DNA of 64,000 nt from Eledone cirrhosa (lineage: Eukaryota). The position numbers and the translations under genes are program-made. Of the stretch, positions 2,794 to 48,319 are shown piece by piece. The stretch lies in NCBI GenBank assembly GCA_964016885.1, contig OZ024753.1, positions 9,300,001 through 9,364,000 on the forward strand, given 5' to 3'. The notes below the pieces were generated by a model that searched no databases, was not told the DNA's origin, and saw only the letters and a list, made by a program, of their open reading frames with translations. Position 1 is the first letter of the stretch. Every line of letters begins with the position of its first letter.

Positions 2794-4523
2794 TAACAAC
2801 AGCATGATACAAATTTGTAGATGAAGGGCTGAAGCCAAACTATTCTAAACATCATAGGCTATGACTTGTATGAGTATTAATAAAGAAAAAAATATCAATG
2901 TTTTTTTTTCTTGGAGAAACAGTGTAGCGATAATTCAAAGCAGTGTTTTCATCAAAGAAATGCTGAAGAAATGTGTAATATTTCAAGTAGAGCACTTCAG
3001 GGGCATGTGGCCTTGTGGTTAGGGTGTTTGATTCACAATCATAAAGCAATGACTTCGATTCCTGACCTGGGCAGTTACATTGCGGTTCTTGAGAAAATTA
3101 CATTTTATCTGCCAGGATAATTAGTTGATAGTATCAGATCAATGGAAACATTGTTTTGTTGGTCTCATCTGATAATCAGCTCTTTTTAATTTCCTTTCTT
3201 CAGAGGAGAAATGGTAAAAAAAATACATTTATTTCAGGTTGGATCTTTATATATAAATTTCTGCAATTCTGCAATTCTGTCACAACACGTAAAGAGAGAA
3301 GAGTAGTTTGACTACCTCATACTACTCCTTTCTCTTTACGTATGCTGACTGCGTGAATGTATTGTGTATTTTTGTAAGTGTATCTGCGTTTGTATGTCTA
3401 TATTTATATACTCATACATATAAATGTTTGCATATGCACAGACAATCACACATATATACATGTACGCATCAGCGTATGCAAAACAATTCTAGTTTAAGAT
3501 AAATCCATGCTTCTATGGATTTCTATTCGATTACCATTGCTACTAAATTAATCACTAACCACTTGTATGAAGGAATCTACCAAAGTAAAATGTTTTCTTC
3601 CATTGAGAAAATTCCTGTCTTTTATTTTGTTTCCCTAGTTTAACAATCGCATATAGTTTTTTGTTGGATGGGTTGGGGGGGGGTTGTTTAGTTTATTTTA
3701 GAAGCTGTAACAGATTATGTCCTATTTTTGTCATAGACAGTTCCTGCATATTATATTTGTAATCTTGTCACATATGCTTGCAATTTCATTGTTAATGTAA
3801 GTTCCAGCAAGAATTTATCTATAGAATATAATTTTCTTCCCGAGACATTCTACAGCATTTTCACAGTTCTTGTACTAACAATATTAATACTATAAGAGTA
3901 TAAACTTGAAACTTAATAAAAATATGAAGGAGAATTCTTACTAAGATAAGTCTCATTGTTACTATATTATTGTTTCCAGAATATGTCGCTTCTGTAATAT
4001 TACCTTATTCCTTTTGTATTAGTTGTAATCTTCTCTGGTTCTTATATCTGGTACCTCAGTAAGCAGACATTGTTCAATTTACTTTGGCAAGGAAATAATA
4101 ACATCAACATTTGCAAATACAATTTTATGCAGCCATGATTGCTAAATAAATAAACAATGGAAGCATGACATCATTTCTCAATATTATTTGGTGTAAACAT
4201 GATAACACTACTTTGAATTGTGAGAAACTAGAAGCTGATATTTCATTTAAGTATCATTTCATTCAAATGTCACATTTAGTTATTTTATAGGATCTGTAAT
4301 AGAAAAACCTTATTTATATTATTCATATATTGTGTATTGGGGCATTTTAAACCTAGTGGTACTCACCTCTCTCGAGGTCTGACCACAGCCAATTTCTTTC
4401 AGAGAGAGAGTGTGTGTGTGTGTGTGTGTGAGAGAGAGAAAGAGAGAGAGTGTGTGTGTATGTGAATGAGAGAGGGGGGGGGGGGGGGCGGCTTGACTCC
4501 AATACTGAACTGGTTGCATTATG

Positions 4524-5080
4524 TGGATTGGCAGAATTGGTAGAGGGTTGGACATGCTTTCCAGCATAGTTATGTCCCTTTACGATCTGAGTTCAAATCC
4601 TGCCAAGGTTAACTTTGCCTTTCATCCTTACGGGGTCGATAAAATAAAGTACCAGTAATGTACTGGGTAATTGCTGGCCTTGTGCCGAAAGTAGAAACAA
4701 TTATATTATATTTGTTTAAAGTAGAAACAATTATTTATTGACCCCAGGGCAGTGGATTGGCAATATCGGTAGAGCGTCAAACAAAATGCTTTGCGGCATA
4801 TTCTTACTGCGCTTCATGTTCTGAGTTCAAATTCCGCAGAGGTTAGCTTTGCCTTTCGTCCTTACCGAGTCGATAAAATAAAATACCAGTAATACATTAG
4901 GGTTGATTTAATCGACTTTCCCCTCCCCTCAAATTACTGGCCTTGTGCATATACTAGAAACCATTATTTATTGACCCCAAAAGAATGAAAAGAAAAGTTG
5001 GCTTCAGTGGGATTTGAACTCAGAGAATAGAAAGCTGGAATGAACACAACAAAGCCTTCCATCTGATACCCTAATAACTC
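4524..5080. mobile_element. Cluster of SINE family B copies (4524-4703 +, 4752-4966 +, ~4966-5080 - diverged)
   Basis: Family B A/B boxes and core in each. Confidence 0.8.
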
Positions 5081-5633
5081 TATGTATGCACTGTCTATTT
5101 AGGGAGTAAAATTATAAAAAAATATTAGCTTCCCAAGTTAGTGATTTGAAACTGCTATTTTGTCAATTTTCAGAAAATTCACTGAAATAAAATATTAACA
5201 AACAAATTTTAATGTTTTGGAAAGAGTGAGTTCACTCATATTGTAATGCTAAAAAAAAGGTTTTTTAAATCACTCTAAAGTGTAATAAAGTTACAATTAT
5301 GCTTAGAAAAATATTTTTTATTGCATACCACAAAATTCTTTTTTTAATATTTTTTTTATTGCTTGATAAATATTGTTATGTTTAATCATCCCCTTGATGG
5401 GTAATATTAATTTTACAATGACGGATCTGTGAAACTTATGGTAATTTAGTTGGTTGGTTGGTATTTTAACTACCATCAGTATAGGTGAAAGAAGAACTGG
5501 AACCCTAACTGGTAATTTCTTTATTACAACAGTCTTCTTTCTGACTGTGTAAATTTTGCCCCTCTCCCCTCCTTACATGGCATCTGAAGCATCTATGTTT
5601 TATTTTCTGCCAAATATATTGAATTGAATTGAA

Positions 5634-13829: not shown

Positions 13830-16800
13830 AGATGCTTTAATTTTAGAGCTACAATATATTGTACTCCTTGGTAGATAAGGCAACTTCTTTAATGTTGGAC
13901 CTACAATAAAATGTACTCCTTGAGAGAGAAGACACTCTTTAAATAGTAGACAAAGCAGTCTCTTTAATATTGGATCTACAATAACATATACTCCTTGGTA
14001 GACAAGACACTCTTTAATATTGGAGCTACAATAAAATGTACTCCATGGTAGACAAGACAATCTCTTTAATGTTGGAGCTACAGTAAAATATACTCCTTGG
14101 TAGACAAGGCAGATTCTTTAATGTTGGAGCTACAGTAAACTGTACTCCTTGGTAGACAAAGCACTCTTTAATGTTGGACCTTCAATAAAATATACTCCTT
14201 GGTAGTCTCTTTAATATTGGAGATATGATAAAATATACTCCTTGGTAGACAAGGCACACACTTTAATGTTGTCCCTTCAATAAAATATACTCCTTGGCAG
14301 ACAAGGCACACTCTTTAATGTTGTCCCTTCAATAAAATATACTCCTTGGCAGACAAGGCACACTCTTTAATGTTGTCCCTTGAATAAAATATACTCCTTG
14401 GCAGACAAGGCACACTCTTTAATGTTGTCCCTTCAATAAAATATACTCCTTGGCAGACAAGGCACACTCTTTAATGTTGTCCCTTCAATAAAATATACTC
14501 CTTGGCAGACAAGGCACACTCTTTAATGTTGTCCCTTCAATAAAATATACTCCTTGGCAGACAAGGCACACTCTTTAATGTTGTCCCTTCAATAAAATAT
14601 ACTCCTTGGCAGACAAGGCACACTCTTTAATGTTGTCCCTTCAATAAAATATACTCCTTGGCAGACAAGGCACACTCTTTAATGTTGTCCCTTCAATAAA
14701 ATATACTCCTTGGCAGACAAGGCATACACACTCTTTAATGTTGCCCCTTCAATAAAATATACTCCTTGGCAGACAAGGCACACTCTTTAATGTTGTCCCT
14801 TCAATAAAATATACTCCTTGGCAGACAAGGCACACTCTTTAATGTTGTCCCTTCAATAAAATATACTCCTTGGCAGACAAGGCATACACACTCTTTAATG
14901 TTGCCCCTTCAATAAAATATACTCCTTGGCAGACAAGGCACACTCTTTAATGTTGTCCCTTCAATAAAATATACTCCTTGGCAGACAAGGCACACTCTTT
15001 AATGTTGTCCCTTCAATAAAATATACTCCTTGGCAGACAAAGCACACTCTTTAATGTTGTCCCTTCAATAAAATATACTCCTTGGCAGACAAAGCACACT
15101 CTTTAATGTTGTCCCTTCAATAAAATATACTCCTTGGCAGACAAGGCACACTCTTTAATGTTGTCCCTTCAATAAAATATACTCCTTGGCAGACAAGGCA
15201 CACTCTTTAATGTTGTCCCTTCAATAAAATATACTCCTTGGAAGACAAGGCACACTCTTTAGTGTTGCCCTTCAATAAAATATACTCCTTGGCAGACAAG
15301 GCACACTCTTTAATGTTGTCCCTTAAATAAAATATACTCCTTGGCAGACAAGGCACACTCTTTAATGTTGTCCCTTCAATAAAATATACTCCTTGGCAGA
15401 CAAGGCACACTCTTTAATGTTGTCCCTTCAATAAAATATACTCCTTGGCAGACAAGGCACACTCTTTAATGTTGTCCCTTGAATAAAATATACTCCTTGG
15501 CAGACAAGGCACACTCTTTAATGTTGTCCCTTCAATAAAATATACTCCTTGGCAGACAAGGCACACTCTTTAATGTTGTCCCTTGAATAAAATATACTCC
15601 TTGGCAGACAAGGCACACTCTTTAATGTTGTCCCTTCAATAAAATATACTCCTTGGCAGACAAGGCACACTCTTTAATGTCCCTTGAATAAAATATACTC
15701 CTTGGCAGACAAGGCACACTCTTTAATGTTGTCCCTTCAATAAAATATACTCCTTGGCAGACAAGGCACACTCTTTAATGTTGTCCCTTCAATAAAATTT
15801 ACTCCTTGGCAGACAAGGCACACTCTTTAATGTTGTCCCTTCAATAAAATATACTCCTTGGCAGACAAGGCACACTCTTTAATGTTGTCCCTTCAATAAA
15901 ATATACTCCTTGGCAGACAAAGCACACTCTTTAATGTTGTCCCTTCAATAAAATATACTCCTTGGCAGACAAGGCACACTCTTTAATGTTGTCCCTTCAA
16001 TAAAATATACTCCTTGGCAGACAAGGCACACTCTTTAATGTTGTCCCTTCAATAAAATATACTCCTTGGCAGACAAGGCACACTCTTTAATGTTGTCCCT
16101 TCAATAAAATATACTCCTTGGCAGACAAAGCACACTCTTTAATGTTGTCCCTTCAATAAAATATACTCCTTGGCAGACAAGGCACACTCTTTAATGTTGT
16201 CCCTTCAATAAAATATACTCCTTGGCAGACAAGGCATACTCTTTAATGTTGTCCCTTGAATAAAATATACTCCTTGGCAGACAAGGCACACTCTTTAATG
16301 TTGTCCCTTCAATAAAATATACTCCTTGGCAGACAAGGCACACTCTTTAATGTCCCTTGAATAAAATATACTCCTTGGCAGACAAGGCACACTCTTTAAT
16401 GTTGTCCCTTCAATAAAATATACTCCTTGGCAGACAAGGCACACTCTTTAATGTTGTCCCTTCAATAAAATTTACTCCTTGGCAGACAAGGCACACTCTT
16501 TAATGTTGTCCCTTCAATAAAATATACTCCTTGGCAGACAAGGCACACTCTTTAATGTTGTCCCTTCAATAAAATATACTCCTTGGCAGACAAAGCACAC
16601 TCTTTAATGTTGTCCCTTCAATAAAATATACTCCTTGGCAGACAAGGCACACTCTTTAATGTTGTCCCTTCAATAAAATATACTCCTTGGCAGACAAGGC
16701 ACACTCTTTAATGTTGTCCCTTCAATAAAATATACTCCTTGGCAGACAAGGCACACTCTTTAATGTTGTCCCTTCAATAAAATATACTCCTTGGCAGACA

Positions 16801-17062
16801 AAGCACACTCTTTAATGTTGTCCCTTCAATAAAATATACTCCTTGGCAGACAAGGCACACTCTTTAATGTTGTCCCTTCAATAAAATATACTCCTTGGCA
16901 GACAAGGCACACTCTTTAATGTTGTCCCTTCAATAAAATATACTCCTTGGCAGACAAGGCACACTCTTTAATGTTGTCCCTTCAATAAAATATACTCCTT
17001 GGCAGACAAGGCATACTCACTCTTTAACATTGGAACTACAATAAACTGTACTCCTTGATAGA
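13830..17062. repeat. 52-bp tandem satellite (homogeneous core ~14230-17015, ~53 units, degenerate flanking units)
   Basis: Unit TAAAATATACTCCTTGGCAGACAAGGCACACTCTTTAATGTTGTCCCTTCAA; period 52 (14281 to 14333). Confidence 0.97.
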
Positions 17063-20424: not shown

Positions 20425-22256
20425 CGGGGTGGGTAGACCAAGAAAAACCTGGGACGAGGTGATTAAAAACTGACCTTGTTCAGTTACACCTCTCTAAGAC
20501 TATGTCACTGGATTGAGATTTTTGGTGCCATGCAGTTGTACAGAAGACCCGCCTTCCCTTACATAAAACCTACAGTCAGTAGGCACCTCTTAACCCAATA
20601 TCCACCCCACCCCACACACACTACCCCATCCTCCCATTTCCATCCAACAAAAAAGCACCCAGTCCACACTGTAAAGTATTCGTGTAGGAGACACGGTAGA
20701 AAGGTTCCCAGTCCACACTGTAAAGTGGTCGTGTAGGAGACACGGTAAAAAGGCTCCCAGTCCACACTGTAAAGTGGTTGTGTAGGAGACATGGTAAAAA
20801 GGCTCCCAGTCCACACTGTAAAGTAGTCATGTAGGAGACACGGTAAAAAGGCTCCCAGTCCACACTGTAAAGTGGTTGTGTAGGAGACACGGGAAAAAGG
20901 CTCCCAGTCCACACTGTAAAGTAGTCATGTAGGAGACACGGTAAAAAGGCTCCCAGTCCACACTGTAAAGTGGTTGTGTAGGAGACACGGTAAAAAGGCT
21001 CCCAGTCCACACTGTAAAGTAGTCATGTAGGAGACACGGTAAAAAGGCTCCCAGTCCACACTGTAAAGTGGTTGTGTAGGAGACACGGTAAAAAGGCTCC
21101 CAGTCCACACTGTAAAGTAGTCATGTAGGAGACACGGTAAAAAGGCTCCCAGTCCACACTGTAAAGTGGTTGTGTAGGAGACATGGTAAAAAGGCTCCCA
21201 GTCCACACTGTAAAGTAGTCATGTAGGAGACACGGTAAAAAGGCTCCCAGTCCACACTGTAAAGTGGTTGTGTAGGAGACATGGTAAAAAGGCTCCCAGT
21301 CCACACTGTAAAGTGGTCGTGTAGGAGAAATGGTAAAAAGGCTCCCAGTCCACACTGTAAAGTGGTTGTGTAGGAGACACAGTAAAAAGGCTCCCAGTCC
21401 ACACTGTAAAGTGGTCGTGTAGGAGACATGGTAAAAAGGCTCCCAGTCCACACTGTAAAGTGGTTGTGTAGGAGACACAGTAAAAAGGCTCCCAGTCCAC
21501 ACTGTAATGTGGTGTGTAGGAGACACGGTAAAAAGGCTCCCAGTCCACACTGTAAAGTGGTCGTGTAGGAGACATGGTAAAAAGGCTCCCAGTCTACACT
21601 GTAAAGTGGTCGTGTAGGAGACATGGTAAAAAGGCTCCCAGTCTACACTGTAAAGTGGTCGTGTAGGAGACATGGTAAAAAGGCTCCCAGTCCACACTGT
21701 AAAGTGGTCATGTAGGAGACATGGTGAAAAGGCTCCCAGTCCACACTGTAATGTGGTCGTGTAGGAGACATGGTAAAAAGGCTCCCAGTCCACACTGTAA
21801 AGTGGTCGTGTAGGAGACATGGTAAAAAGGCTCCCAGTCCACACTGTAAAGTGGTCGTGTAGGAGACATGGTGAAAAGGCTCCCAGTCCACACTGTAATG
21901 TGGTCGTGTAGGAGACATGGTGAAAAGGCTCCCAGTCCACACTGTAAAGTGGTCGTGTAGGAGACATGGTAAAAAGGCTCCCAGTCCACACTGTAATGTG
22001 GTCGTGTAGGAGACACGGTAAAAAGGCTCCCAGTCCACACCGTAAAGTGGTCATGTAGGTGACACAGTAAAAAGGCTCCCAGTCCACACTGTAAATGTGG
22101 TTGGTGTTAGGAAGGACGTCCAGCTGTAGAAAACCTACCAGAGATACTTCTGTATGAATGAGACACAATCTCCCGACCAATCCCGCATCAAATGGAACAA
22201 AACTATCTAACCCATGCTAGCGTGGAAGATGGATGTTAAACAATGATGATGATGAT
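20425..22256 (+). mobile_element. RTE 3' end with internal 49-bp satellite expansion
   Basis: GVGRPRKTWDEVIKTDL at the start; GTTGGTGTTAGGAAGG and (GAT)n at the end. Confidence 0.88.
20650..22095. repeat. 49-bp minisatellite (~29 units) derived from the RTE 3' UTR module
   Basis: Unit AAAAAGGCTCCCAGTCCACACTGTAAAGTGGTCGTGTAGGAGACACGGT; dimeric 98-bp substructure. Confidence 0.97.
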
Positions 22257-30072: not shown

Positions 30073-30111
<39 letters not shown>

Positions 30112-30244
30112 TAGACCACCCGTGACCTGTTGGGTCATGTTTACTTGAAAATAATTTTTAAATAATTAAAATATACACAAAATGTATACAATGTAAAATT
30201 ACATTGGAAAGCCAATATATATATGTGTGTGTGTGTGTATGTAC

Positions 30245-30292
<48 letters not shown>

Positions 30293-30425
30293 TTGGGTGT
30301 GTGGGTGTCTGTGGCCTATATATACTGGTTACAGACATACACACACACATACATCCTGTCCTAACACAAGTTATAAGATACATATAACTTAATATTCAGT
30401 CACCAAATTCCAGTTAGATACGCTG

Positions 30426-32560
30426 TTACAGTTTGTTCAAAAGAATGCTTTTGATGACAACATTCTTAGTTGACATTTTCTTCTCGTTTTCCACGGCTAA
30501 GGGCTACCTACAGTTGACCGTGTTGGAATACAGGTCGTTCTAGATAAACCAAGACGTTTTCCATAGTTTGTCCTTGTGCTTTATGAATAGTCATAATGAA
30601 GCACGATTGAACTGGGAATTGGCTTCGCTGCAAGGGATATCCTCACCTTCGGATAGATTAATTCTTATTCTAGGTATCATAACGATCTCATTTCTGAAAG
30701 CAGCAGTGTTGATTCTCGCTACTATGAGATTGTCGTGCAGTTCTTCCACAATCATGCGCGTTCCATTACAAAGCCTTGGAGGATTCAAGTTTCACATAAG
30801 AATTATTGGCGATCCTTTTTTCAATTCCAGGTTATGTGGTGGCAGTCCTGATAGTTCAACCGAATCAAGGAATTCAGTCGGGAAATGAGTGGCATTGGCA
30901 CCATCACTCACAGAATTATAGGATCGGTACTCTTTTATGGTTCCAGGGAAGTGTCTGATACAGGTGGAATTGATGCTTCTCATCATTTCATTGAGAGGTA
31001 CTAAGATGCAATTGTTCGAAAACACTTTGAATGAGGGGTAGATGAAATCAATGCATTCTTCCATAGTTGTTGCTTGGAGAACCATTTCTTTTGGCAAAAT
31101 AATTTCTTCATTTTCATTTCTTTTTATCTTATCTTCTCCAATATCCAATAGGAACTGTGAATAGTCTCCTGCTCCCCCACCCAATCGCATGTTTGTCTTC
31201 AACTGAAATCTTTTGAAGCTTCGCCATAAGTAGGATTTTTTAATGCAGGCGTTTTCCACGTCCGCTTCATTTCCCCTTTTCACTACCGGAAGAAGCTGAT
31301 GGAAATCACCACAGCAAATTGTCAAAATTCCACCGAATGCCTCATTGTTGTCGCATATGTCATGCAGAGTGAGGTCAACAGCTTCGAAGCTTTCTCTCTG
31401 AATCATAGGACACTCATCCCAAACAATCAGCCTTGTATGCTGAAGATGTTTGCCGTCTTTGAGTTTTTATCATTGTTGCACAGACCATTTTCTTTCACTA
31501 CTATCGGTATTTTGAACCTAGAATGCGCTGTTCTTCCACCAGGCATCAGTGTTGCGGCAATGCCAGATGACGCAACAGCAATAGCCACGTCACCGTTTCC
31601 CCTGACTTTTGAAAGAATTAAGTTAATCAGGAATGTCTTTCCTGTTCCACCAGGAGCGTCAATGAAAATCAATACAGATGTGTTCATCTCTAAACTGTTA
31701 CAAACGAAGTCGTACACGTGTTTTTGTTCACTATTCAGTAGAGGCTCTGTCTCTTCTACAAATCGTCGCTGCTCTTCTCTGCTGTATTGCAATTCATGCA
31801 ATAACTCCAAATTGCCAATATCCTGATTAGCAACAATATTATTTGGCCTTGGCAAGTTAAAGCCACTAAGACTTTTGCCCAAAATACAGAAGACATTGAT
31901 CATAAAGTCTCTCGCTAATCAAAAGGTTAGAGTTTCTGGTAATCTTTCCTTCTAGTTGAAGGTAATCCTCAGACAGCGAATGCTTAAATCGAACCCATAA
32001 AGCACTGGAATTGTCAATTTCCGTATTTGTGAGGAGCACAATGAATAGATCTCTCATGGCTTTGGGAAGCTTTGTTCGCTCAGCATCTTCCAGAGTCTGC
32101 TGCCAATGATCATTCGATTGAAGCAAACCTTTCTCTCTGCAGATGTCTTTGAATAATGTCAGGAGTTCTCCATCACACATTTTCAAAGAGTTGAAGGATA
32201 CTGGCCCTTTGACGTGATGCAAAAGGAGTTTTAAATAATACAGGTCACTACTTAGTGGAGAAACAGTGTATACTCGTCCCAAAACGTTTGCCTAAAAAAT
32301 CTCTGGATACTGCTAAACTGTTTCCCCCACATTTCTCCTTTCCCATCTCTTATTACTCCAAGTGTAAAACTTTGGCATATCGGCATAATAGAATGTTTTT
32401 GTAAACGGATTGCGATCCAGTCAGAATCGTCTTAGCCATGTTATTGTTTACTTTAACAGCAGCATTGACCCGAAAGAAGATTTGATTTTCCTCAGGTATA
32501 TGAACTTGAAGGCAAACTACGGCCTGTTCTCTCTCATGAATTGGAAATCCAAGTACCAAG
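30426..32560 (-). pseudogene. Helitron RepHel C-terminal region / PIF1-family helicase, frameshifted
   Basis: FPIHER..LQVH; YYLKLLLHHVKGPVSF; DAPGGTGKTF; ASSGIAATLMPGGRTAHSRFKIP; FGG..GDFHQLLPV; SGLPPHNL; RLCNGTR; MTIHKAQGQT; HGQL*VALSR. Confidence 0.95.
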
Positions 32561-33015
32561 TCAAATATTCTGTTTAAAGAAAGCTGAAATATATATACTC
32601 AGAGTACAAATAATTTGTATTTTCTAAGTCACTTAAGAATATTTTTTAAATATGCCAAGAAATATTTTTTCCATCGTATTCACAGGAAAATAATTTTAAA
32701 AAATGAAGATATTGTGTATGTAAATAAAGCTATTTGTGAAATCCAATATTTCTAAATAATTGAAATATTCTTTTTAATTAAAGCAAAAATATAAACACCT
32801 ACTGTTTAAAACCAACTGATATTTTACAGTGATATTCATTTAATGCTTTTCTGATAATTAAACTATCGACTGTTTAAAGAAAACTCAAATATAGATACTT
32901 GAAGTACAAACAACTTGTAGTTTTGAAATCATATTCACTGAGAAATCACTGAAAAATCTTTTTTTAATAATTATTAAAAATATTTCGCGAATGATGAAAA
33001 TAGGTTATGTCGATT

Positions 33016-33877
33016 TTAGCAACGGAGGTGGGTGCTCAGAAAGTACAATAACTAGGGTAAGAACGGGATGGAAGAAGTTTAGGGAACTACTACCACTGCT
33101 AGCTGCAAAAGGCTTCTCCCTCAGAATGAAAGGCAGACTGTATGATGCGTGTATCCGAACAGCGATGTTGCATGGTAGTGAGACCTGGGCGCTGAAGGTG
33201 GAAGACTTACGTAGATTAGAGAGAAACGAAGCCTGCATGCTCCGATGGATGTGTAACAGTAATATACGTGAACGACAAAGCATAAAGGAATTGAGAGAGA
33301 GACTGAGCATAAGAGGAATCAAATGCTGCGTGCAGGAGAGGCGGTTACGCTGGTATGGACATGTGATGCGTATGAAGGATGACAGCTGCATAAAAAGGTG
33401 CAGAGCACTAGAAGTTGATGGAAACCGCGGAGTGGGGAGACCCAAGATGACTTGGGATGAGGTGATAAAAGCCGACCTTACCCAACTACACCTCTCAAAG
33501 TCAATGACACACGACCGTGACTTCTGGCGTCACGCAGTAATACAGGGTACCCGACCTCCCATGGGTACATGCTGAAGCATATAAACAATATGCCCCCCCC
33601 CCCCCACCGCAAGGTGGCCGTGGAGGTGCCACGGCAAAAAAGCACCCAGCCCACACTGTAAAGTGGACGTGTAGGCGCCACGAAAAAGCACCCAGCACTC
33701 ACTGTAAATGAGGTTGGTGTTAGGAAGGGCATCCAGCTGTAGAAATCAAGCCAGATCAGTTCCTGTATGAGCAAGGCATGGTCAGCCGACCAGACACTGC
33801 CCACAACAGGACAACCCGTCTAACCCATGCTAGCGTGGAAGAACGGACGTAAAACGGTGATGATGATGATGATGATG
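33016..33877 (+). mobile_element. 5'-truncated RTE LINE inserted in the Helitron (RT C-terminal frame to 33575)
   Basis: Highly similar to the 9102-9692 protein; conserved 3' UTR and (GAT)n. Confidence 0.92.
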
Positions 33878-33971
33878 ACATCAAACTTGTTTTATCCCAA
33901 TTTCAGGGTTATATCACTTACAGGGCTATTTCTCCATTATGCACCGTTTTGGCTATTTACAAAGGTATCCT

Positions 33972-34009
<38 letters not shown>

Positions 34010-34369
34010 GTCTCTAACTTAAGTACTGTTACACACACACACACACACGTCTCTAAGTACGTAAACACATGCACTGGCACACCTACACATACACACGGTG
34101 GCAGTAGAACTGTGAAAGAGAGAGAAAGAAATAACGTTATGGATAGGGGGAGAGTTAAAATAAATAAAAGTTAAGGACGCTGTCTCTTTCCCTATCTGTC
34201 ATCCCCTCCCCCTCTCTCTCTCATCTCTTTATTCTCTCTCATTCCCTCTCTCTCTTTCTCTTTTTTTCTCTCACCCTCACTCTCTTTCTCTCACCCTCAC
34301 TCTCTTTCTCACCCTCACTCTCTTTCTCACCCTCACTCTCTCTTTCTCTCCCTCTCTCTGGCACTGGTT

Positions 34370-35468
34370 TGAAAGTTTGCGTCTCAGCAAGCGGTGAACC
34401 CCGCTCGTTTATATCTGTAAAGTGACTAAAGATTAAAACAAATGTAATATGGTTAGGGTTAGAGTTAGTTGTTAGTTGTTAGGGTTAGGGTTAGGGTTAG
34501 GGTTAGGGTTAGGGTTAGGGTTAGGGTTAGTTGTTAGGGTTAGTTGTTAGGGTTAGGGTTAGTTGTTAGGGGTTAGGGTTAGGGTTAGTTGTTAGGGGTT
34601 AGGGTTAGGATTAGGGTTAGGGTTAGTTGTTAGGGGTTAGGGGTTAGGGTTAGTTGTTAGGGTTAGTTGTTAGGGTTAGGGTTAGTTGTTGGGGTTAGTT
34701 GTTAGGGTTACGGTTAGGGTTAGTTGTTAGGGTTATGGTTAGGGTTAGTTATTAGGGTTAGGGTTAGTTGTTAGGGTTAGGGTTAGTTTTTAGGGTTAGG
34801 GTTAGTTTTTAGGGTTAGGGTTACGGTCAGAGTTAGGGTTAGGGTTAGGGTTAGGGTTAGGGTTAGGGTTAGGGTTAGGGTTAGTTTTTAGGGTTAGGGT
34901 TACGGTCAGAGTTAGGGTTAGTTGTTAGGGTTAGGGTTAGTTTTTAGGGTTAGGGTTAGTTGTTAGGGTTAGGGTTATTTGTTAGGGTTAGGGTTAGTTG
35001 TTAGGGTTACGGTTGGGGTTAGTTTTTAGGGCTACGGTTAGGGTTAGTTTTTAGGGTTAGTTGTTAGGGTTACAGTTAGGATTAGTTGTTAGGGTTACGG
35101 TTAGTTGTTAGGGTTACGGTTAGGGTTAGTTGTTAGGGTTACGGTTAGGGTTAGGGTTAGGGTTAGGGTTAGTTGTTAGGGTTAGGGTTAGTTGTTAGGG
35201 TTATGGTTAGGGTTATTTGTTTGGGTTAGTTTTAGGGTTACGGTTATGGTTAGTTGTTAGGGTTATGGTTAGGGTTAGTTTTAGGGTTAGGGTTACGGTT
35301 AGTTGTTAGGGTTAGGGTTAGTTGTTAGTTTTTAGGGTTAGGGATGAGCTAAACATACAGAGAATGAAAAAATTGAACAGAGAAGAAAAATATTGTGATT
35401 TCACTTTACGGATATAAACGGGAGGAACTATAGGCAGGGTTCACCGCTTGCTGAGACGCAAACTTTCA
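34370..35468. mobile_element. Inverted-repeat cassette enclosing a telomeric array
   Basis: Perfect 32-bp IR 34370-34401 / 35437-35468 (TGAAAGTTTGCGTCTCAGCAAGCGGTGAACCC); inner 19/20 IR 34406-34425 / 35401-35420. Confidence 0.7.
34451..35343 (+). repeat. Interstitial degenerate telomeric array (TTAGGG)n with TTAGTTG, TTAGTTT, TTACGG, TTATGG variants
   Basis: Direct reading; single orientation throughout. Confidence 0.95.
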
Positions 35469-36094
35469 CTTTTGACAGACAATAAGAAACCACTGCCTTC
35501 TCTCTCACCCTCACTCTCTCTTTCTCTTTCCCACCCTCACTCTCTTTCTCTCTCTCTCCCTCACTCTCTGTCTCTCTCTCACCCTCTCTTTCTCTCTCTC
35601 ACCCTCTCTTTCTCTCTCTCACCCCCCTCTGGACAACCAAAAAACAAATGGATTATTTCTTTCGGTATTCATTATAAAATAAGATAAATTGAATTTGCTA
35701 TTTTTGGAAAATTGAAAATATTGTCAATGTGCGATTTACGCCAAATTTGTTTTATTTAGAGTATTTTCTCATTAAGCAATGTTTTGGCTATTTACGAAGT
35801 TTTGCAGGGTTATGTTAATTTCGAGGTATTTTCCCAGTATGCACCGTTGTGGCTATTTACGAAGGTACCCCCAAAACTCGCGAATCTCGGGGTCAGATTT
35901 TCGCGAAACTTGTTCTATTCAATTTGTATTCCCATTTCAGAAGCAACTTGCTTTCAAAGTATTTACCCATTATGCGCCCTTTTGGCTGTATTACATAACA
36001 GACAAGCAAGCAAGCAAGATCAGAGTTTTAGCAGTATATAGATAGTCCAATTCCACCCCGCCCGTCCCTTCAATCTATATTATTTCTCATTCTT

Positions 36095-37442: not shown

Positions 37443-37616
37443 TATATATATATACACATATATATATATATATACACACATATATATACACAGCCAGATC
37501 AGTTCCTGTATGAGCAAGGCATGGTCAGCCGACCAGACACTGCACACAACAGGACAACCCGTCTAACCCATGCTAGCGTGGAAGAACGGACGTAAAATGG
37601 TGATGATGATGATGAC

Positions 37617-40335: not shown

Positions 40336-42570
40336 ATATTTGAGGCAACATAGCTACATAACTACTATACTAATGGTGGCTAATCTATAATATATATTGA
40401 GGCAACATAGCTACATAACTACTATACTAATGATGGCTAATCTATAATATATATTGAGGCAACATAGCTACATAACTACTATACTAATGATGGCTAATCT
40501 ATAATATATATTGAGGCAACATAGCTACATAACTACTATACTACTGATGGCTAATCTATAATATATATTGAGGCAACATAGCTACATAACTACTATACTA
40601 CTGATGGCTAATCTATAATATATATTGAGGCAACATAGCTACATAACTACTATACTACTGATGGCTAATCTATAATATATATTGAGGCAACATAGCTACA
40701 TAACTACTATACTAATGATGGCTAATCTATAATATATATTGAGGCAACATAGCTACATAACTACTATACTAATGATGGCTAATCTATAATATATATTGAG
40801 GCAACATAGCCTCATAACTACTATACTAATGATGGCTAATCTATAATATATATTGAGGCAACATAGCCTCATAACTACTATACTAATGATGGCTAATCTA
40901 TAATATATATTGAGGCAACATAGCTACATAACTACTATACTAATGATGGCTAATCTATAATAGATATTGAGGCAACATAGCTACATAACTACTCTACTAA
41001 TGATGGCTAATCTATAATAGATATTGAGGCAACATAGCTACATAACTACTCTACTAATGATGGCTAATCTATAATATATATTGAGGCAACATAGCTACAT
41101 AACTACTATACTAATGATGGCTAATCTATAATATATATTGAGGCAACATAGCTACATAACTACTATACTAATGATGGCTAATCTATAATATATATTGAGG
41201 CAACATAGCTACATAACTACTATACTTATGATGGCTAATCTATAATATATATTGAGGCAACATAGCTACATAACTACTATACTAATGGTGGCTAATCTAT
41301 AATATATATTGAGGCAACATAGCTACATAACTACTATACTAATGATGGCTAATCTATAATATATATTGAGGCAACATAGCTACATAACTACTATACTAAT
41401 GATGGCTAATCTATAATATGTATTGAGGCAACATAGCTACATAACTACTATACTACTGATGGCTAATCTATAATATATATTGAGGCAGCATAGCTACATA
41501 ACTACTATACTACTGATGGCTAATCTATAATATATATTGAGGCAACATAGCTACATAACTACTATACTAATGATGGCTAATCTATAATATATATTGAGGC
41601 AACATAGCTACATAACTACTATACTAATGATGGCTAATCTATAATATATATTGAGGCAACATAGCTACATAACTACTATACTACTGATGGCTAATCTATA
41701 ATATATATTGAGGCAACATAGCTACATAACTACTATACTAATGATGGCTAATCTATAATATATATTGAGGCAACATAGCTACATAACTACTATACTACTG
41801 ATGGCTAATCTATAATATATATTGAGGCAACATAGCTACATAACTACATAACTACTATACTAATGATGGCTAATCTATAATATATATTGAGGCAACATAG
41901 CTACATAACTACTATACTAATGATGGCTAATCTATAATATATATTGAGGCAACATAGCTACATAACTACTATACTAATGATGGCTAATCTATAATATATA
42001 TTGAGGCAACATAGCTACATAACTACTATACTACTGATGGCTAATCTATAATATATATTGAGGCAACATAGCTACATAACTACTATACTAATGATGGCTA
42101 ATCTATAATATATATTGAGGCAACATAGCTACATAACTACTATACTACTGATGGCTAATCTATAATATATATTGAGGCAACATAGCTACATAACTACTAT
42201 ACTACTGATGGCTAATCTATAATATATATTGAGGCAACATAGCTACATAACTACTATACTAATGATGGCTAATCTATAATATATATTGAGGCAACATAGC
42301 TACATAACTACTATACTACTGATGGCTAATCTATAATATATATTGAGGCAACATAGCTACATAACTACTATACTACTGATGGCTAATCTATAATATATAT
42401 TGAGGCAACATAGCTACATAACTACTATACTACTGATGGCTAATCTATAATATATATTGAGGCAACATAGCTACATAACTACTATACTAATGATGGCTAA
42501 TCTATAATATATATTGAGGCAACATAGCTACATAACTACTATACTAATGATGGCTAATCTATAATATATA
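40336..42570. repeat. 57-bp tandem satellite (~39 units)
   Basis: Unit TATTGAGGCAACATAGCTACATAACTACTATACTAATGATGGCTAATCTATAATATA; period 57 (40381 to 40438). Confidence 0.97.
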
Positions 42571-45384: not shown

Positions 45385-46350
45385 ACAAGCCCACACTGTA
45401 AAGTAGTTGTTTTCATGCCAAGATAAAAAGCACCCAATCCACATTGTAAAGTAGTAGTTTTGGTGCCAAGATAAAAAGCACCCAGTCCACACTGTAAAGT
45501 AGTAGTTTTCGTGCCAAGATAAAAAGCACCCAGTCCACACTGTAAAGTAGTTGTTTTCGTGCCAAGATAAAAAGCACCCAGTTCACACTGTAAAGTAGTA
45601 GTTTTGGTGCCAAGATAAAAAGCACCCAGTCCACACTGTAAAGTAGTAGTTTTGGTGCCAAGATAAAAAGCACCCAGTCCGCACTGTAAAGTAGTTGCTT
45701 TGGTGCCACGATAAAAAGCACCCAGTTCGCACTGTAAAGTAGTTGTTTTGGTGCCAAGATAAAAAGCATCCAGTCCACACTCTAAAGTAGTTGTTTTCGT
45801 GCCAAGATAAAAAGCACCCAGTCCACACTGTAAAGTAGTTGTTTTGGTGCCAAGATAAAAAGCACCCAGTCCACACTGTAAAGTAGTAGTTTTGGTGCCA
45901 AGATAAAAAGCATCCAGTCCACACTGTAAAGTAGTTGTTTTGGTGCCAAGATAAAAAGCACCCAGTCCACACTGTAAAGTAGTTGTTTTGGTGCCAAGAT
46001 AAAAAGCATCCAGTCCACACTGTAAAGTGGTTGTTTTGGTGCCAAGATAAAAAGCACCTAGTCCACACTGTAAAGTAGTAGTTTTGGTGCCAAGATAAAA
46101 AGCATCCAGTCCACACTGTAAAGTGGTTGTTTTGGTGCCAAGATAAAAAGTACCTAGTACACTCTATAAATGTGGTTGACATTAGGAAGGGTATCCAGCC
46201 ATAGAAACCAAACTAGAAACAGTTCTAAATGAGCAAGACATGATCATCTGATCTGGCTTGTCTCACAACAGGACAACTCGTCTAACCCATGCTAGCATGG
46301 AAAATGGACATTAAATGGTGATGATGATAATGATGGTGATGATGATGATG
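45385..46350 (+). mobile_element. RTE 3' tail with 48-bp module expanded ~16x (45390-46170)
   Basis: Unit CCAGTCCACACTGTAAAGTAGTTGTTTTGGTGCCAAGATAAAAAGCAC, then TTAGGAAGGGTATCCAG..(GAT)n. Confidence 0.88.
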
Positions 46351-46532
46351 AATAGCCACTCCAGTACCTTGACAAAATGTAATGCGAGAGAAAATTTCAT
46401 TGTTTCTTTAGTGCCTCATTATGGCCAAAGACCGATTACTGAAACCAATAAATAAAAAACATTACCAAAATGAGAGTAGTTTTCAATGGTAGATTTTACT
46501 GGTTAATTGCACTAGTATTATAAATCAAGGCT

Positions 46533-47437
46533 GTGGATCAGCTGTAAAGGTAGAGTGTCAGACATCATACTTTGTGGTATAGAGTGTCAGACACCATACT
46601 TTGTGGTATAGAGTGTCAGACATCATACTTTGTGCTATAGAGTGTCAGACACCATATTTTGTGGTATAGAGTGTCAGACATCATACTTTGTGCTATAGAG
46701 TGTCAGACACCATACTTTGTGGTATAGAGTGTCAGACATCATACTTTGTGGTATAGAGTGTCAGACACCATACTTTGTGGTATAGAGTGTCAGACGCCAT
46801 ACTTTGTGGTATAGAGTGTCAGACATCATACTTTGTGGTGTAGAGTGTCAGACATCATACTTTGTGCTATAGAGTGTCAGACACCATACTTTGTGGTATA
46901 GAGTGTCAGACATCATACTTTGTGCTATAGAGTGTCAGACACCATACTTTGTGGTATAGAGTGTCAGACATCATACTTTGTGGTATAGAGTGTCAGACAT
47001 CATACTTTGTGGTATAGAGTGTCAGACATCATACTTTGTGGTATAGAGTGTCAGACACCATACTTTGTGGTATAGAGTGTCAGACATCATACTTTGTGGT
47101 ATAGAGTGTCAGACATCATACTTTGTGCTATAGAGTGTCAGACATCATACTTTGTGGTATAGAGTGTCAGACACCATACTTTGTGGTATAGAGTGTCAGA
47201 CATCATACTTTGTGGTATAGAGTGTCGGACAACATGCATTGTGGTATAGTGTCAGACAACATGCTTTGCAGCATAGAGTTATGTCCTTTTACATTCGAAT
47301 TTCAAATCTCGCCGAGGTTAACTTTGCCTTTCATCCTTACGAGGTTGATAAAATAAGTACCAGTAATGCACTGGAAGCGATTTCATTGACTTTCCCCATC
47401 CCCAGAATTGCTGGCCTTGTGCTAAATCAGAAACCAT
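46533..47437 (+). mobile_element. SINE family B with internal 29-bp minisatellite (~24 units, 46551-47275)
   Basis: Unit TAGAGTGTCAGACAYCATACTTTGTGGTA corresponds to SINE head segment TAGAGGGTCGGACGCCATGCTTTGCAGCA; B box and core follow the array. Confidence 0.85.
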
Positions 47438-47475
47438 TTTAAAGCAAGCAAGTAGAAATCACAGAAATTAAGACA

Positions 47476-48319
47476 TACGAACATCAGATGAAATGTTCAT
47501 AGGCTGACTAAGATACTCTCATGGAATGACTAAATGAGGTTTATTTATCAACATAGTCCCTGGAAAGAAACTATGCAGTTATTAATAAGAAGAGTTGAAA
47601 TTAATGCATGCAAGATTTCACAGCTCTAGCATCTCTCCTTCATAGGCTGACCAAGATACTCTCATGGAATGACTAAATGAGGTTTATTTTTCAACATAAT
47701 CCCTGGAAAGAAACTATGCAGTTATTAATAAGAAGAGTTGAAATTAATGTAAGCAAGATTTCACAGCTCTAGCATCACTCATTCTTAGGCTGACCAAGAT
47801 ACTCTCATGGAATGACTAAATGAGGTTTATTTTTCAACATAGTCCCTGGAAAGAAACTATGCAGTTATTAATAAGAAGAGTTGAAATTAATGCATGCAAG
47901 ATTTCACAGCTCTAGCATCTCTCCTTCATAAGCTGACCAAGATACTCTCACGGAATGACTAAATGAGGTTTATTTTTCAACATAATCCCTGGAGAGAAAC
48001 AATGTAGTTATTAATAAAAAGAGTTGAAATTAATGCATGAGAGATTTAACAGCTCTAGCCCCACTCCTTTATAAGCTGACCAAGATACTCTCATGGAATG
48101 ACTAAATGAGGTTTATTTTTTAACATAGTCCCTGGAAAGAAACAATGCAGTTATTAATAAGAAGTGTTGAAATTAATGCGTGTAAGATTTCAACATAGTC
48201 CCTGGAAAGAAATAATGCAGTTATTAATAAGAAGAGTTAAAATTAATGCATGCAAGATTTCACAGCTCTAGGATCACTCCTTCATAGTCAGCCTCTGAAA
48301 TGTTCAGCCAACTCTCATA
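47476..48319. mobile_element. mariner-type MITE family M with internal 143-bp unit amplified ~5.5x
   Basis: Outer degenerate TIRs (..GTTCATAGGCTGAC / GTCAGCCTCTGAAATGTTCAGCC); unit is the reverse complement of the body of 48915-49108. Confidence 0.8.

What the first reader, a model, noticed from the sequence alone, without database searches (positions are those of the whole stretch)
34370..35468. Telomeric array packaged between perfect inverted repeats inside a Helitron
Seen: ~890 bp of unidirectional TTAGGG and variants bracketed by a perfect 32-bp IR and an inner 19/20-bp IR, with (CT)-rich CACCCTCACTCTCT tracts outside both ends and no obvious TSD. It is not a head-to-head fusion scar. 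Inference: either a fold-back non-autonomous element whose loop is an expandable telomeric repeat, or a native Helitron module. Either would spread interstitial telomeric (G-quadruplex-prone, telomere-protein-binding) sites. Perfect IRs beside a decayed helicase suggest younger age or gene conversion.
Basis: partly seen in the sequence, partly recalled or inferred. Interest (0 to 1): 0.75.

Follow-up and report, generated by a model that had tools for sequence, protein, structure and literature searches.

The report
Merlin mini-transposon carrying telomere-like repeats
This is a small, gene-less jumping DNA element of the Merlin family whose middle is a variable-length run of telomere-like TTAGGG repeats; one copy likely landed in a larger rolling-circle element and was copied with it, so mobile DNA likely scattered short telomere-like patches, though only a small share of this genome's total.

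Summary
The array and both inverted repeats are real, but the element was mis-bounded. It runs 34360-35497, ends in GGC…GCC, has ~100-bp terminal inverted repeats (the left one cut by deletions, which leaves the 'perfect 32-mer') and an 8-bp target duplication. The family has at least 39 sites in this genome, most outside Helitrons; 14 of 19 free two-ended copies have 8-bp TSDs (control 0 of 342). Two decayed full-length relatives share the TIR and encode an IS1595/Merlin DDE transposase; their 3' UTR holds a ~2-unit TAACCC seed, which is 18-1,459 bp long in the short copies. So it is a non-autonomous Merlin element. Seven copies sit at one site of a Helitron sub-lineage and share a diagnostic base; 27 of 30 Helitron loci examined lack it: one capture, then hitchhiking. 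'Native Helitron module', 'no TSD', 'younger' and 'gene conversion' are not supported. Tandem repeats inside Merlin and MITEs are known; a TTAGGG-type one was not found in my searches. Its share of genomic TTAGGG is small: arrays of ~36 and ~300 kb lack its ends, and TTAGGG was not seen at 19 contig ends.

The parts
34360..35497 (-). Non-autonomous Merlin (IS1595-type) DNA transposon, 1,138 bp; strand given in the orientation of the parent's transposase
   Evidence: GGC...GCC termini and 8-bp TSD; arms match the transposase-bearing relatives L229/L101 and L097
34352..34359 (+). Left target-site duplication CTCTCTCT
35498..35505 (+). Right target-site duplication TTCTCTCT (1 mismatch)
   Evidence: perfect in sibling Helitron copies L098 and L099
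34360..34425 (+).
34426..34450 (-). Subterminal sequence between array and 3' TIR, as in the parent element
34451..35343 (+). Telomere-like array: 82 TTAGGG plus TTAGTTG (25), TTAGTT(T) (9), TTACGG (9), TTAGGGG (4), TTATGG (4) and rarer units; G-rich strand on +
35344..35400 (-). Remnant of the parent's 3' UTR, fused to the 5' TIR by the internal deletion that removed the transposase
   Evidence: 98% match to the sequence just behind the L229 ORF
35401..35497 (-). Right TIR (the parent's 5' TIR), 97 bp, 92% to the family TIR
34207..34359 (+). (CT)-rich tract of the Helitron, left part (insertion target, not part of the small element)
   Evidence: present uninterrupted in empty Helitron copies
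35498..35624 (+). (CT)-rich tract of the Helitron, right part
30111..36042 (-). Host Helitron copy: 5' TC at 36042, 3' hairpin + CTAG at 30111, between A and T
   Evidence: homology to 25 of 29 sibling loci ends at 36043-36045; 3' end read; weak 5-bp-stem hairpin
30792..31915 (-). Broken PIF1 helicase frames of the Helitron
   Evidence: PF05970 E 1e-30 and 4e-29, PF21530; stops and frame changes
33016..33877 (+). Later insertion in this Helitron copy, absent from sibling L098; looks like a LINE 3' end with an (ATG)n tail (label recalled; no Pfam hit)

Best explanation
The element at 34360-35497 is a non-autonomous Merlin-family DNA transposon with ~100-bp GG-ended inverted repeats and an 8-bp target duplication, likely formed by internal deletion of a transposase-bearing parent and likely moved by cut-and-paste; its interior is a short TAACCC seed from the parent's 3' UTR that likely grew by replication slippage or unequal exchange, and this copy was likely amplified as a passenger after one insertion into a Helitron. 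Shown: ends, TSDs, family, parent with DDE_Tnp_IS1595 ORF and seed, length variation, empty Helitron sites, shared site and shared base of the seven Helitron-borne copies. Inferred: the transposition chemistry, the single capture, and slippage as the growth route. The array most likely has no role in transposition (copies with 0-1 unit also have TSDs). Confidence: Merlin identity ~0.95, single capture ~0.9, slippage-type growth ~0.7.
For: Ends and TSD: both ends found at 24 of 37 sites; of the 19 outside Helitrons 14 have an 8-bp TSD with at most 1 mismatch (12 perfect), against 0 of 342 cross-paired flanks; 7-, 9- and 10-bp lengths fit worse. Parent: L229/L101 has the same TIR (90.9%), a 291-aa ORF over the PF12762 cut-off (48.4 bits vs 27), then the 57-bp arm and a TAACCCTAACC seed; L097 has both TIR ends, the ORF remains and a 23-bp seed. 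Intermediate deletion forms keep parts of the 5' UTR or ORF (L080, L085, L083, L252, L253). Array lengths 18-1,459 bp in short copies (26 of 31 loci parsed). Capture: 7 copies at the same CT site in the same orientation, arrays 56-895 bp; TIR base 15 is A in 7 of 7 Helitron-borne and 1 of 14 free copies; a short Helitron junction is shared by 7 of 7 filled and 1 of 27 empty copies; 27 of 30 Helitron loci are empty. Slippage: impure array, a 53-bp block with a private unit repeated 79 bp apart, TTAGGGG units clustered (p 0.002, one of five units tested).
Against: 5 of 19 free two-ended copies show no 8-bp TSD, and 13 of 37 sites lacked a recognisable end and were left out. Neither parent copy is intact: L101 has Y at the first conserved D column and a C-terminal deletion and no 3' TIR nearby; L097 is interrupted and has a stop. 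The Helitron tree is star-like: the six filled copies are clustered (2 changes vs 5.6 shuffled, 0 of 500) and one clade is not rejected (p-AU 0.45) but is not recovered (6 loci left out for short cover, L096 not included). The window's TSD lies in a CT tract, where a match is cheap. Four of five variant units show no significant clustering and the longest repeat is no longer than in shuffles (367 of 1,000), so slippage is not proven.
Confidence: 0.88

Rival explanations
1. The IR-array unit is a native module of this Helitron family, or a Helentron/HINE-type element with subterminal IRs.
For: It lies inside a Helitron in 7 places.
Against: 27 of 30 Helitron loci lack it; 32 of 39 sites are outside this Helitron; it makes 8-bp TSDs and has a DDE parent, neither expected of rolling-circle elements (recalled).
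Confidence: 0.02
2. Same element, but the array grows by telomerase adding repeats to the seed at breaks (for instance those made by excision), as for mammalian short interstitial telomeric sequences.
For: Pure short TTAGGG runs sit inside unrelated repeats of this genome (L150, L155, L156), which is the pattern PMC7215372 ascribes to break repair (passages); the window array has two pure runs of 8.
Against: About 40% of the window's units are variants, the same 7-base variants recur in many copies including short ones, and lengths grade from 18 bp upward from a seed already in the parent. TTAGGG was not shown to be this organism's telomere (0 of 19 contig ends).
Confidence: 0.15
3. The seven Helitron-borne copies are independent insertions into a preferred CT-rich target, or segmental duplications, not Helitron-driven copies.
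For: The Helitron tree does not recover them as a clade.
Against: Same site, same orientation, shared TIR base (7 of 7 vs 1 of 14) and shared Helitron junction; free copies have unrelated TSDs; element and Helitron are equally diverged; the copies lie on seven places of six or more contigs.
Confidence: 0.06
4. The array is an adaptation: it binds telomere proteins or folds G-quadruplexes that help the element move or survive, or it seeds the genome's very large TTAGGG-type arrays.
For: The seed is kept in most copies (26 of 31 parsed); 5 canonical G4 motifs in the window; a ~300-kb array on C1 also has a 7-base variant (TTAGCTG, some TTAGTTG).
Against: Copies with 0-1 unit have perfect TSDs; the sister Merlin family lacks arrays (13 loci seen); no element arm at the four edges of the two large arrays; the family is low-copy.
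Confidence: 0.06

Closest known systems
Merlin superfamily DNA transposons (IS1016/IS1595-related), non-autonomous members; Lopes et al. 2021, PMC8101967 (abstract, passages, S1 Table part 1 of 2, supplement searches)
   Same: TIR 24-462 bp with terminal GG, 8-9-bp TSD, DDE_Tnp_IS1595 transposase in the parent, internal tandem repeats that the authors suggest are spread as proto-satellites.
   Different: The internal repeat here is TTAGGG-type; the paper's main text has no 'telomer'. Its table lists periods only: Merlin-1_Aplcal has a 6-bp x 39.5 repeat of unstated sequence, and one supplementary contig starts with a CCCTAA run, so an unremarked precedent cannot be excluded.
Tandem-repeat-carrying MITEs (Xenopus miDNA4 and Xstir, insect GTCY MITEs, clam MITEs), as reviewed in PMC12628747 and PMC6947457 (passages)
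   Same: Inverted-repeat element with an internal array of variable copy number that can outgrow the element.
   Different: Different superfamily and unit; here also a second ride on a Helitron.
Oxytricha telomere-bearing elements (TBE), PMC4724952 (passages)
   Same: A cut-and-paste transposon that carries telomeric repeats.
   Different: TBEs are Tc1/mariner elements with ANT target duplications and a fixed short repeat in the TIR itself; here the repeat is internal, one-sided and expandable.
Short interstitial telomeric sequences, PMC7215372, PMC9693754, PMC6410037 (passages)
   Same: Internal TTAGGG runs; transport by mobile elements is named there as a proposed origin.
   Different: The mammalian ones are ascribed to one-step insertion at breaks; these grow from a seed inside a transposon.

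Membership tests
Merlin (non-autonomous) | TIRs of 24-462 bp | tested here: met
   ~100-bp TIR in family copies; window copies 66 and 97 bp after deletions
Merlin (non-autonomous) | Terminal 5'-GG-3' | tested here: met
   GGC...GCC in window and most copies
Merlin (non-autonomous) | 8- or 9-bp TSD | tested here: met
   14 of 19 free two-ended copies, control 0 of 342; window 7 of 8 bases
Merlin (non-autonomous) | Related element with the same ends encoding DDE_Tnp_IS1595 | tested here: met
   L101/L229 and L097; both decayed
Merlin (non-autonomous) | Mobilisation in trans by a Merlin transposase | not testable with these tools
   Inferred from TSDs; a sister family has an open 302-aa ORF 72% identical to L101's
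MITE in the strict sense | High copy number, uniform short size (criteria recalled) | tested here: not met
   At least 39 sites only; 50-1,138 bp among two-ended copies without nested inserts. Works like a MITE, but low-copy
Native Helitron module | Present in most copies of the Helitron and not outside it | tested here: not met
   27 of 30 Helitron loci empty; 32 of 39 sites outside
Helentron/HINE | No TSD, short subterminal IRs, T-rich target (recalled) | tested here: not met
   8-bp TSDs of varied sequence, IRs terminal
Helitron (host element) | 5' TC, 3' hairpin + CTRR, A|T target, PIF1 helicase (criteria recalled) | tested here: met
   no Rep domain was looked for with success (no hit upstream of PIF1)
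Telomere-fusion interstitial repeat | Head-to-head (TTAGGG)n(CCCTAA)n | tested here: not met
   82 TTAGGG, 0 CCCTAA
Interstitial telomeric sequence | Unit equals the organism's own telomere repeat | tested here: inconclusive
   0 of 19 contig ends carry arrays; TTAGGG as the usual animal repeat is recalled; 57,484 (TTAGGG)6 matches exist in the assembly
Telomere-bearing elements (TBE) | Telomeric repeat within the TIR, Tc1/mariner transposase, ANT TSD | tested here: not met

The most novel reading that the evidence does not exclude
A Merlin transposon lineage carries a telomere-repeat seed that recruits telomerase or telomere-binding proteins, so that its short derivatives, and the Helitron that captured one, act as mobile nuclei for interstitial telomeres, some of which outgrow their ends into the genome's 36-300-kb TTAGGG-type arrays; the trait may be shared by other mollusc Merlins.
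Probability: 0.07. Interest if true: 0.75.

Novelty: new variant of a known kind. Interest (0 to 1): 0.38.

Why it matters
Reviews list transport by mobile elements as a proposed source of interstitial telomeric sequence and Merlin as a proposed spreader of tandem repeats. This family shows the steps in one genome: seed in the parent, deletion derivatives, dispersal with TSDs, growth to 1.4 kb, and a second dispersal inside a Helitron. The seven same-site copies with 56-895-bp arrays are a natural set of replicates for how telomere-like tracts change length. It also warns that short interstitial TTAGGG signals need not mark fusions. The scale is modest: about 40 decayed copies, no function shown.

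Tried and rejected
Telomere motif at contig ends: none of 19 ends had an array. Link to the giant arrays: no element arm at both edges of C1:208.556-208.592 Mb or C1:217.829-218.129 Mb; dominant variants differ; interiors were only sampled. Top 30 PF12762 loci held no TIR of this family; the parent was found by DNA search instead. No intact parent found among 40 scored matches of 73 candidates. Helitron tree unresolved (gap columns 363-406 there are an artefact of locus length). A first guess of the Helitron 5' end at ~35684 was wrong; homology runs to 36043. Searches failed technically and were redone; one search failed on stop codons and was not repeated, so the LINE label is untested. Sequencing runs: of 4 laid, X3, X4 and X6 cover only the TTAGGG part, X1 also holds arm pieces with 0-9 differences; whether X1 is another species is unknown, and nothing on expression follows. 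Protein search (9,519 relatives at E 0.001) gave no names and was not used further. Earlier-findings look-ups returned nothing. Literature searches (listings only unless stated) found no description of a TTAGGG-carrying Merlin or MITE; Repbase sequences and subscription papers (Feschotte 2004, known only through PMC8101967) were not available, and bioRxiv supplements are closed.

Full report
Observation. The window holds an exact 32-bp inverted repeat (34370-34401 / 35437-35468), a 20-bp inner one with one mismatch, and between them an 893-bp array with 82 TTAGGG and no CCCTAA. The array has 138 units; pure runs reach 8, 8 and 4 units, and seven-base variants (TTAGTTG 25, TTAGTT(T) 9) give a 19-bp higher-order period. 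The surrounding element is a Helitron on the minus strand, 30111-36042: PIF1 hits in broken frames, CTAG 3' end, and a 5' end where homology to 25 of 29 sibling loci stops.

True boundaries. The 32-mer has 19 exact matches at 17 sites in the 3.0-Gb assembly, control 0. Reading those loci shows a longer element starting GGCACTGG and ending CCAGTGCC, with ~100-bp TIRs. Searches with the terminal 29-mer (39 matches, control 0) and with the right arm (71 matches; 40 of 51 candidates scored) give 37 sites examined and 2 more: at least 39, 7 of them in this Helitron. Both ends were found at 24 of 37; of the 19 outside Helitrons 14 have an 8-bp TSD with at most one mismatch (12 perfect), 5 do not; cross-paired flanks give 0 of 342. 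The window's TSD is CTCTCTCT / TTCTCTCT.

Parent. The genome has many IS1595/Merlin transposase matches (150 scored of 447 candidates). One next to a family copy (L097) is a decayed full-length element with this family's ends, interrupted by other insertions. Its DNA found L101/L229: same TIR (90.9%), a 291-aa ORF passing PF12762's cut-off, then the 57-bp stretch that forms the short element's inner arm, then TAACCCTAACC. So the short element equals 5' TIR + parent's 3' end, with the gene deleted; intermediate deletions exist, as do symmetric forms with two 3' ends. Neither parent is intact. A sister family with GGCACTAC ends has an open 302-aa ORF, 72% identical, and no arrays in the 13 loci whose counts I saw (output partly cut). 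PMC8101967 (passages) defines Merlin by TIRs of 24-462 bp with terminal GG, 8-9-bp TSDs and DDE_Tnp_IS1595; all testable features are met. The D, D, E assignment rests on conserved columns and on recall.

The array. Lengths run from 14-23 bp in the parents to 18-1,459 bp in short copies (26 of 31 loci parsed; 7 are 200 bp or more; the two longest besides the window share flanks and are one duplicated locus). Copies with 0-1 unit still have perfect TSDs, so the array is not needed to move. The same seven-base variants recur across copies; in the window a 53-bp block with a private unit is repeated 79 bp apart and TTAGGGG units cluster (p 0.002), but four other units do not and the longest repeat is ordinary against shuffles. 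Slippage or unequal exchange is the likeliest route (inference); telomerase contribution is not excluded.

Ride on the Helitron. Of 30 Helitron loci fetched with its 5' region, 27 have an uninterrupted CT tract, 2 carry the element, 1 could not be anchored (765 candidates, 40 scored). The seven filled copies share site and orientation, a TIR base (7 of 7 vs 1 of 14 free copies) and a shortened Helitron junction (7 of 7 vs 1 of 27 empty copies, L132). Their arrays are 56-895 bp, so most length change came after capture. A backbone tree is star-like: clustering is significant and one clade is not rejected, but not shown. Substitution divergence from the window is 2.6-5.3% for the element's arm and 4-8% for Helitron parts: no sign that it is younger. 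The two TIRs differ at position 62 in 13 of 15 copies that cover it: no sign of conversion between arms.

Scale. The assembly has 57,484 matches to (TTAGGG)6; the listed ones fall in other repeats and in two large arrays of about 36 kb and 300 kb on C1 whose four edges lack the element's arms. The larger one has its own seven-base variant (TTAGCTG, with some TTAGTTG), an unexplained resemblance. None of 19 contig ends carries TTAGGG, so 'telomeric' is by resemblance to the usual animal repeat (recalled).

Comparison and verdict. Tandem repeats inside Merlin elements and MITEs are known (PMC8101967, PMC12628747, PMC6947457; passages); transposon transport is a proposed origin of interstitial telomeric sequence (PMC9693754, PMC6410037; passages); ciliate TBEs carry telomeric repeats in their TIRs (PMC4724952; passages); PMC9071541 (passages) added nothing. 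Ten searches found no TTAGGG-carrying Merlin, but S1 Table of PMC8101967 lists a 6-bp repeat of unstated sequence in an Aplysia Merlin and a supplementary contig begins with CCCTAA repeats. Verdict: a real, well-resolved new variant of a known kind; a clean example of a proposed process, small in scale and without shown function. Interest 0.38.

Noticed in passing
G000:C1:217.829-218.129 Mb (L235-L239, L254-L256) and C1:208.556-208.592 Mb (L248, L249): Very large one-directional interstitial arrays of TTAGGG variants in mid-scaffold; the 300-kb one is rich in a 7-base unit TTAGCTG, starts beside an (AT)-rich tract and runs into a different satellite at its right edge. Possible fusion relics, satellites or mis-scaffolded ends.
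   Followed up: partly
L251:3569-4700 (G000:C27:5.885 Mb): The element's inner arm plus a short CCCTAA run is tandemly amplified about eight times (124-157-bp units): a proto-satellite arising from the element.
   Followed up: partly
L150:~1500; L155 and L156:~1500: Short pure TTAGGG runs (6-8 units) inside unrelated repeats: one at a GTTAGG seed of a SINE-like repeat, one dropped into a satellite unit.
   Followed up: no
L096:~3900-5390 (G000:C3:15.91 Mb): A sister Merlin with an open 302-aa transposase (all three conserved acidic columns kept) abuts a truncated Helitron that carries the small element; candidate source of transposase in trans.
   Followed up: partly
L080:2723-7099 (G000:C1:320.87 Mb): A family copy with perfect 8-bp TSD holding nested insertions: a small Helitron-like piece and an LTR-retrotransposon-like piece (labels by eye).
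   Followed up: no
L002, L008, L019, L082, L088, L089: Symmetric sub-type with two 3' ends of the parent around the seed, suggesting template switching during repair.
   Followed up: partly
L094 and L095 (G000:C25:4.80 and 7.35 Mb): Inverted segmental duplicate pair with the longest arrays (about 1.1 and 1.45 kb), both with damaged ends.
   Followed up: partly
window 33016-33877: Insertion specific to this Helitron copy; its last 124 bp recur at 37492-37615 (98%).
   Followed up: partly
window 13948-17018, 20649-22101, 40336-42570, 45391-48192: Many minisatellite blocks (52, 49, 57, 48, 29, 143-bp units); the 48-49-bp family recurs through the window.
   Followed up: no
PMC8101967 S1 Table and supplement file 3: Merlin-1_Aplcal has a 6-bp x 39.5 repeat of unstated unit; contig LD349245.1 in the Merlin contig set starts with a CCCTAA run. 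Leads for a wider Merlin-TTAGGG link.
   Followed up: partly
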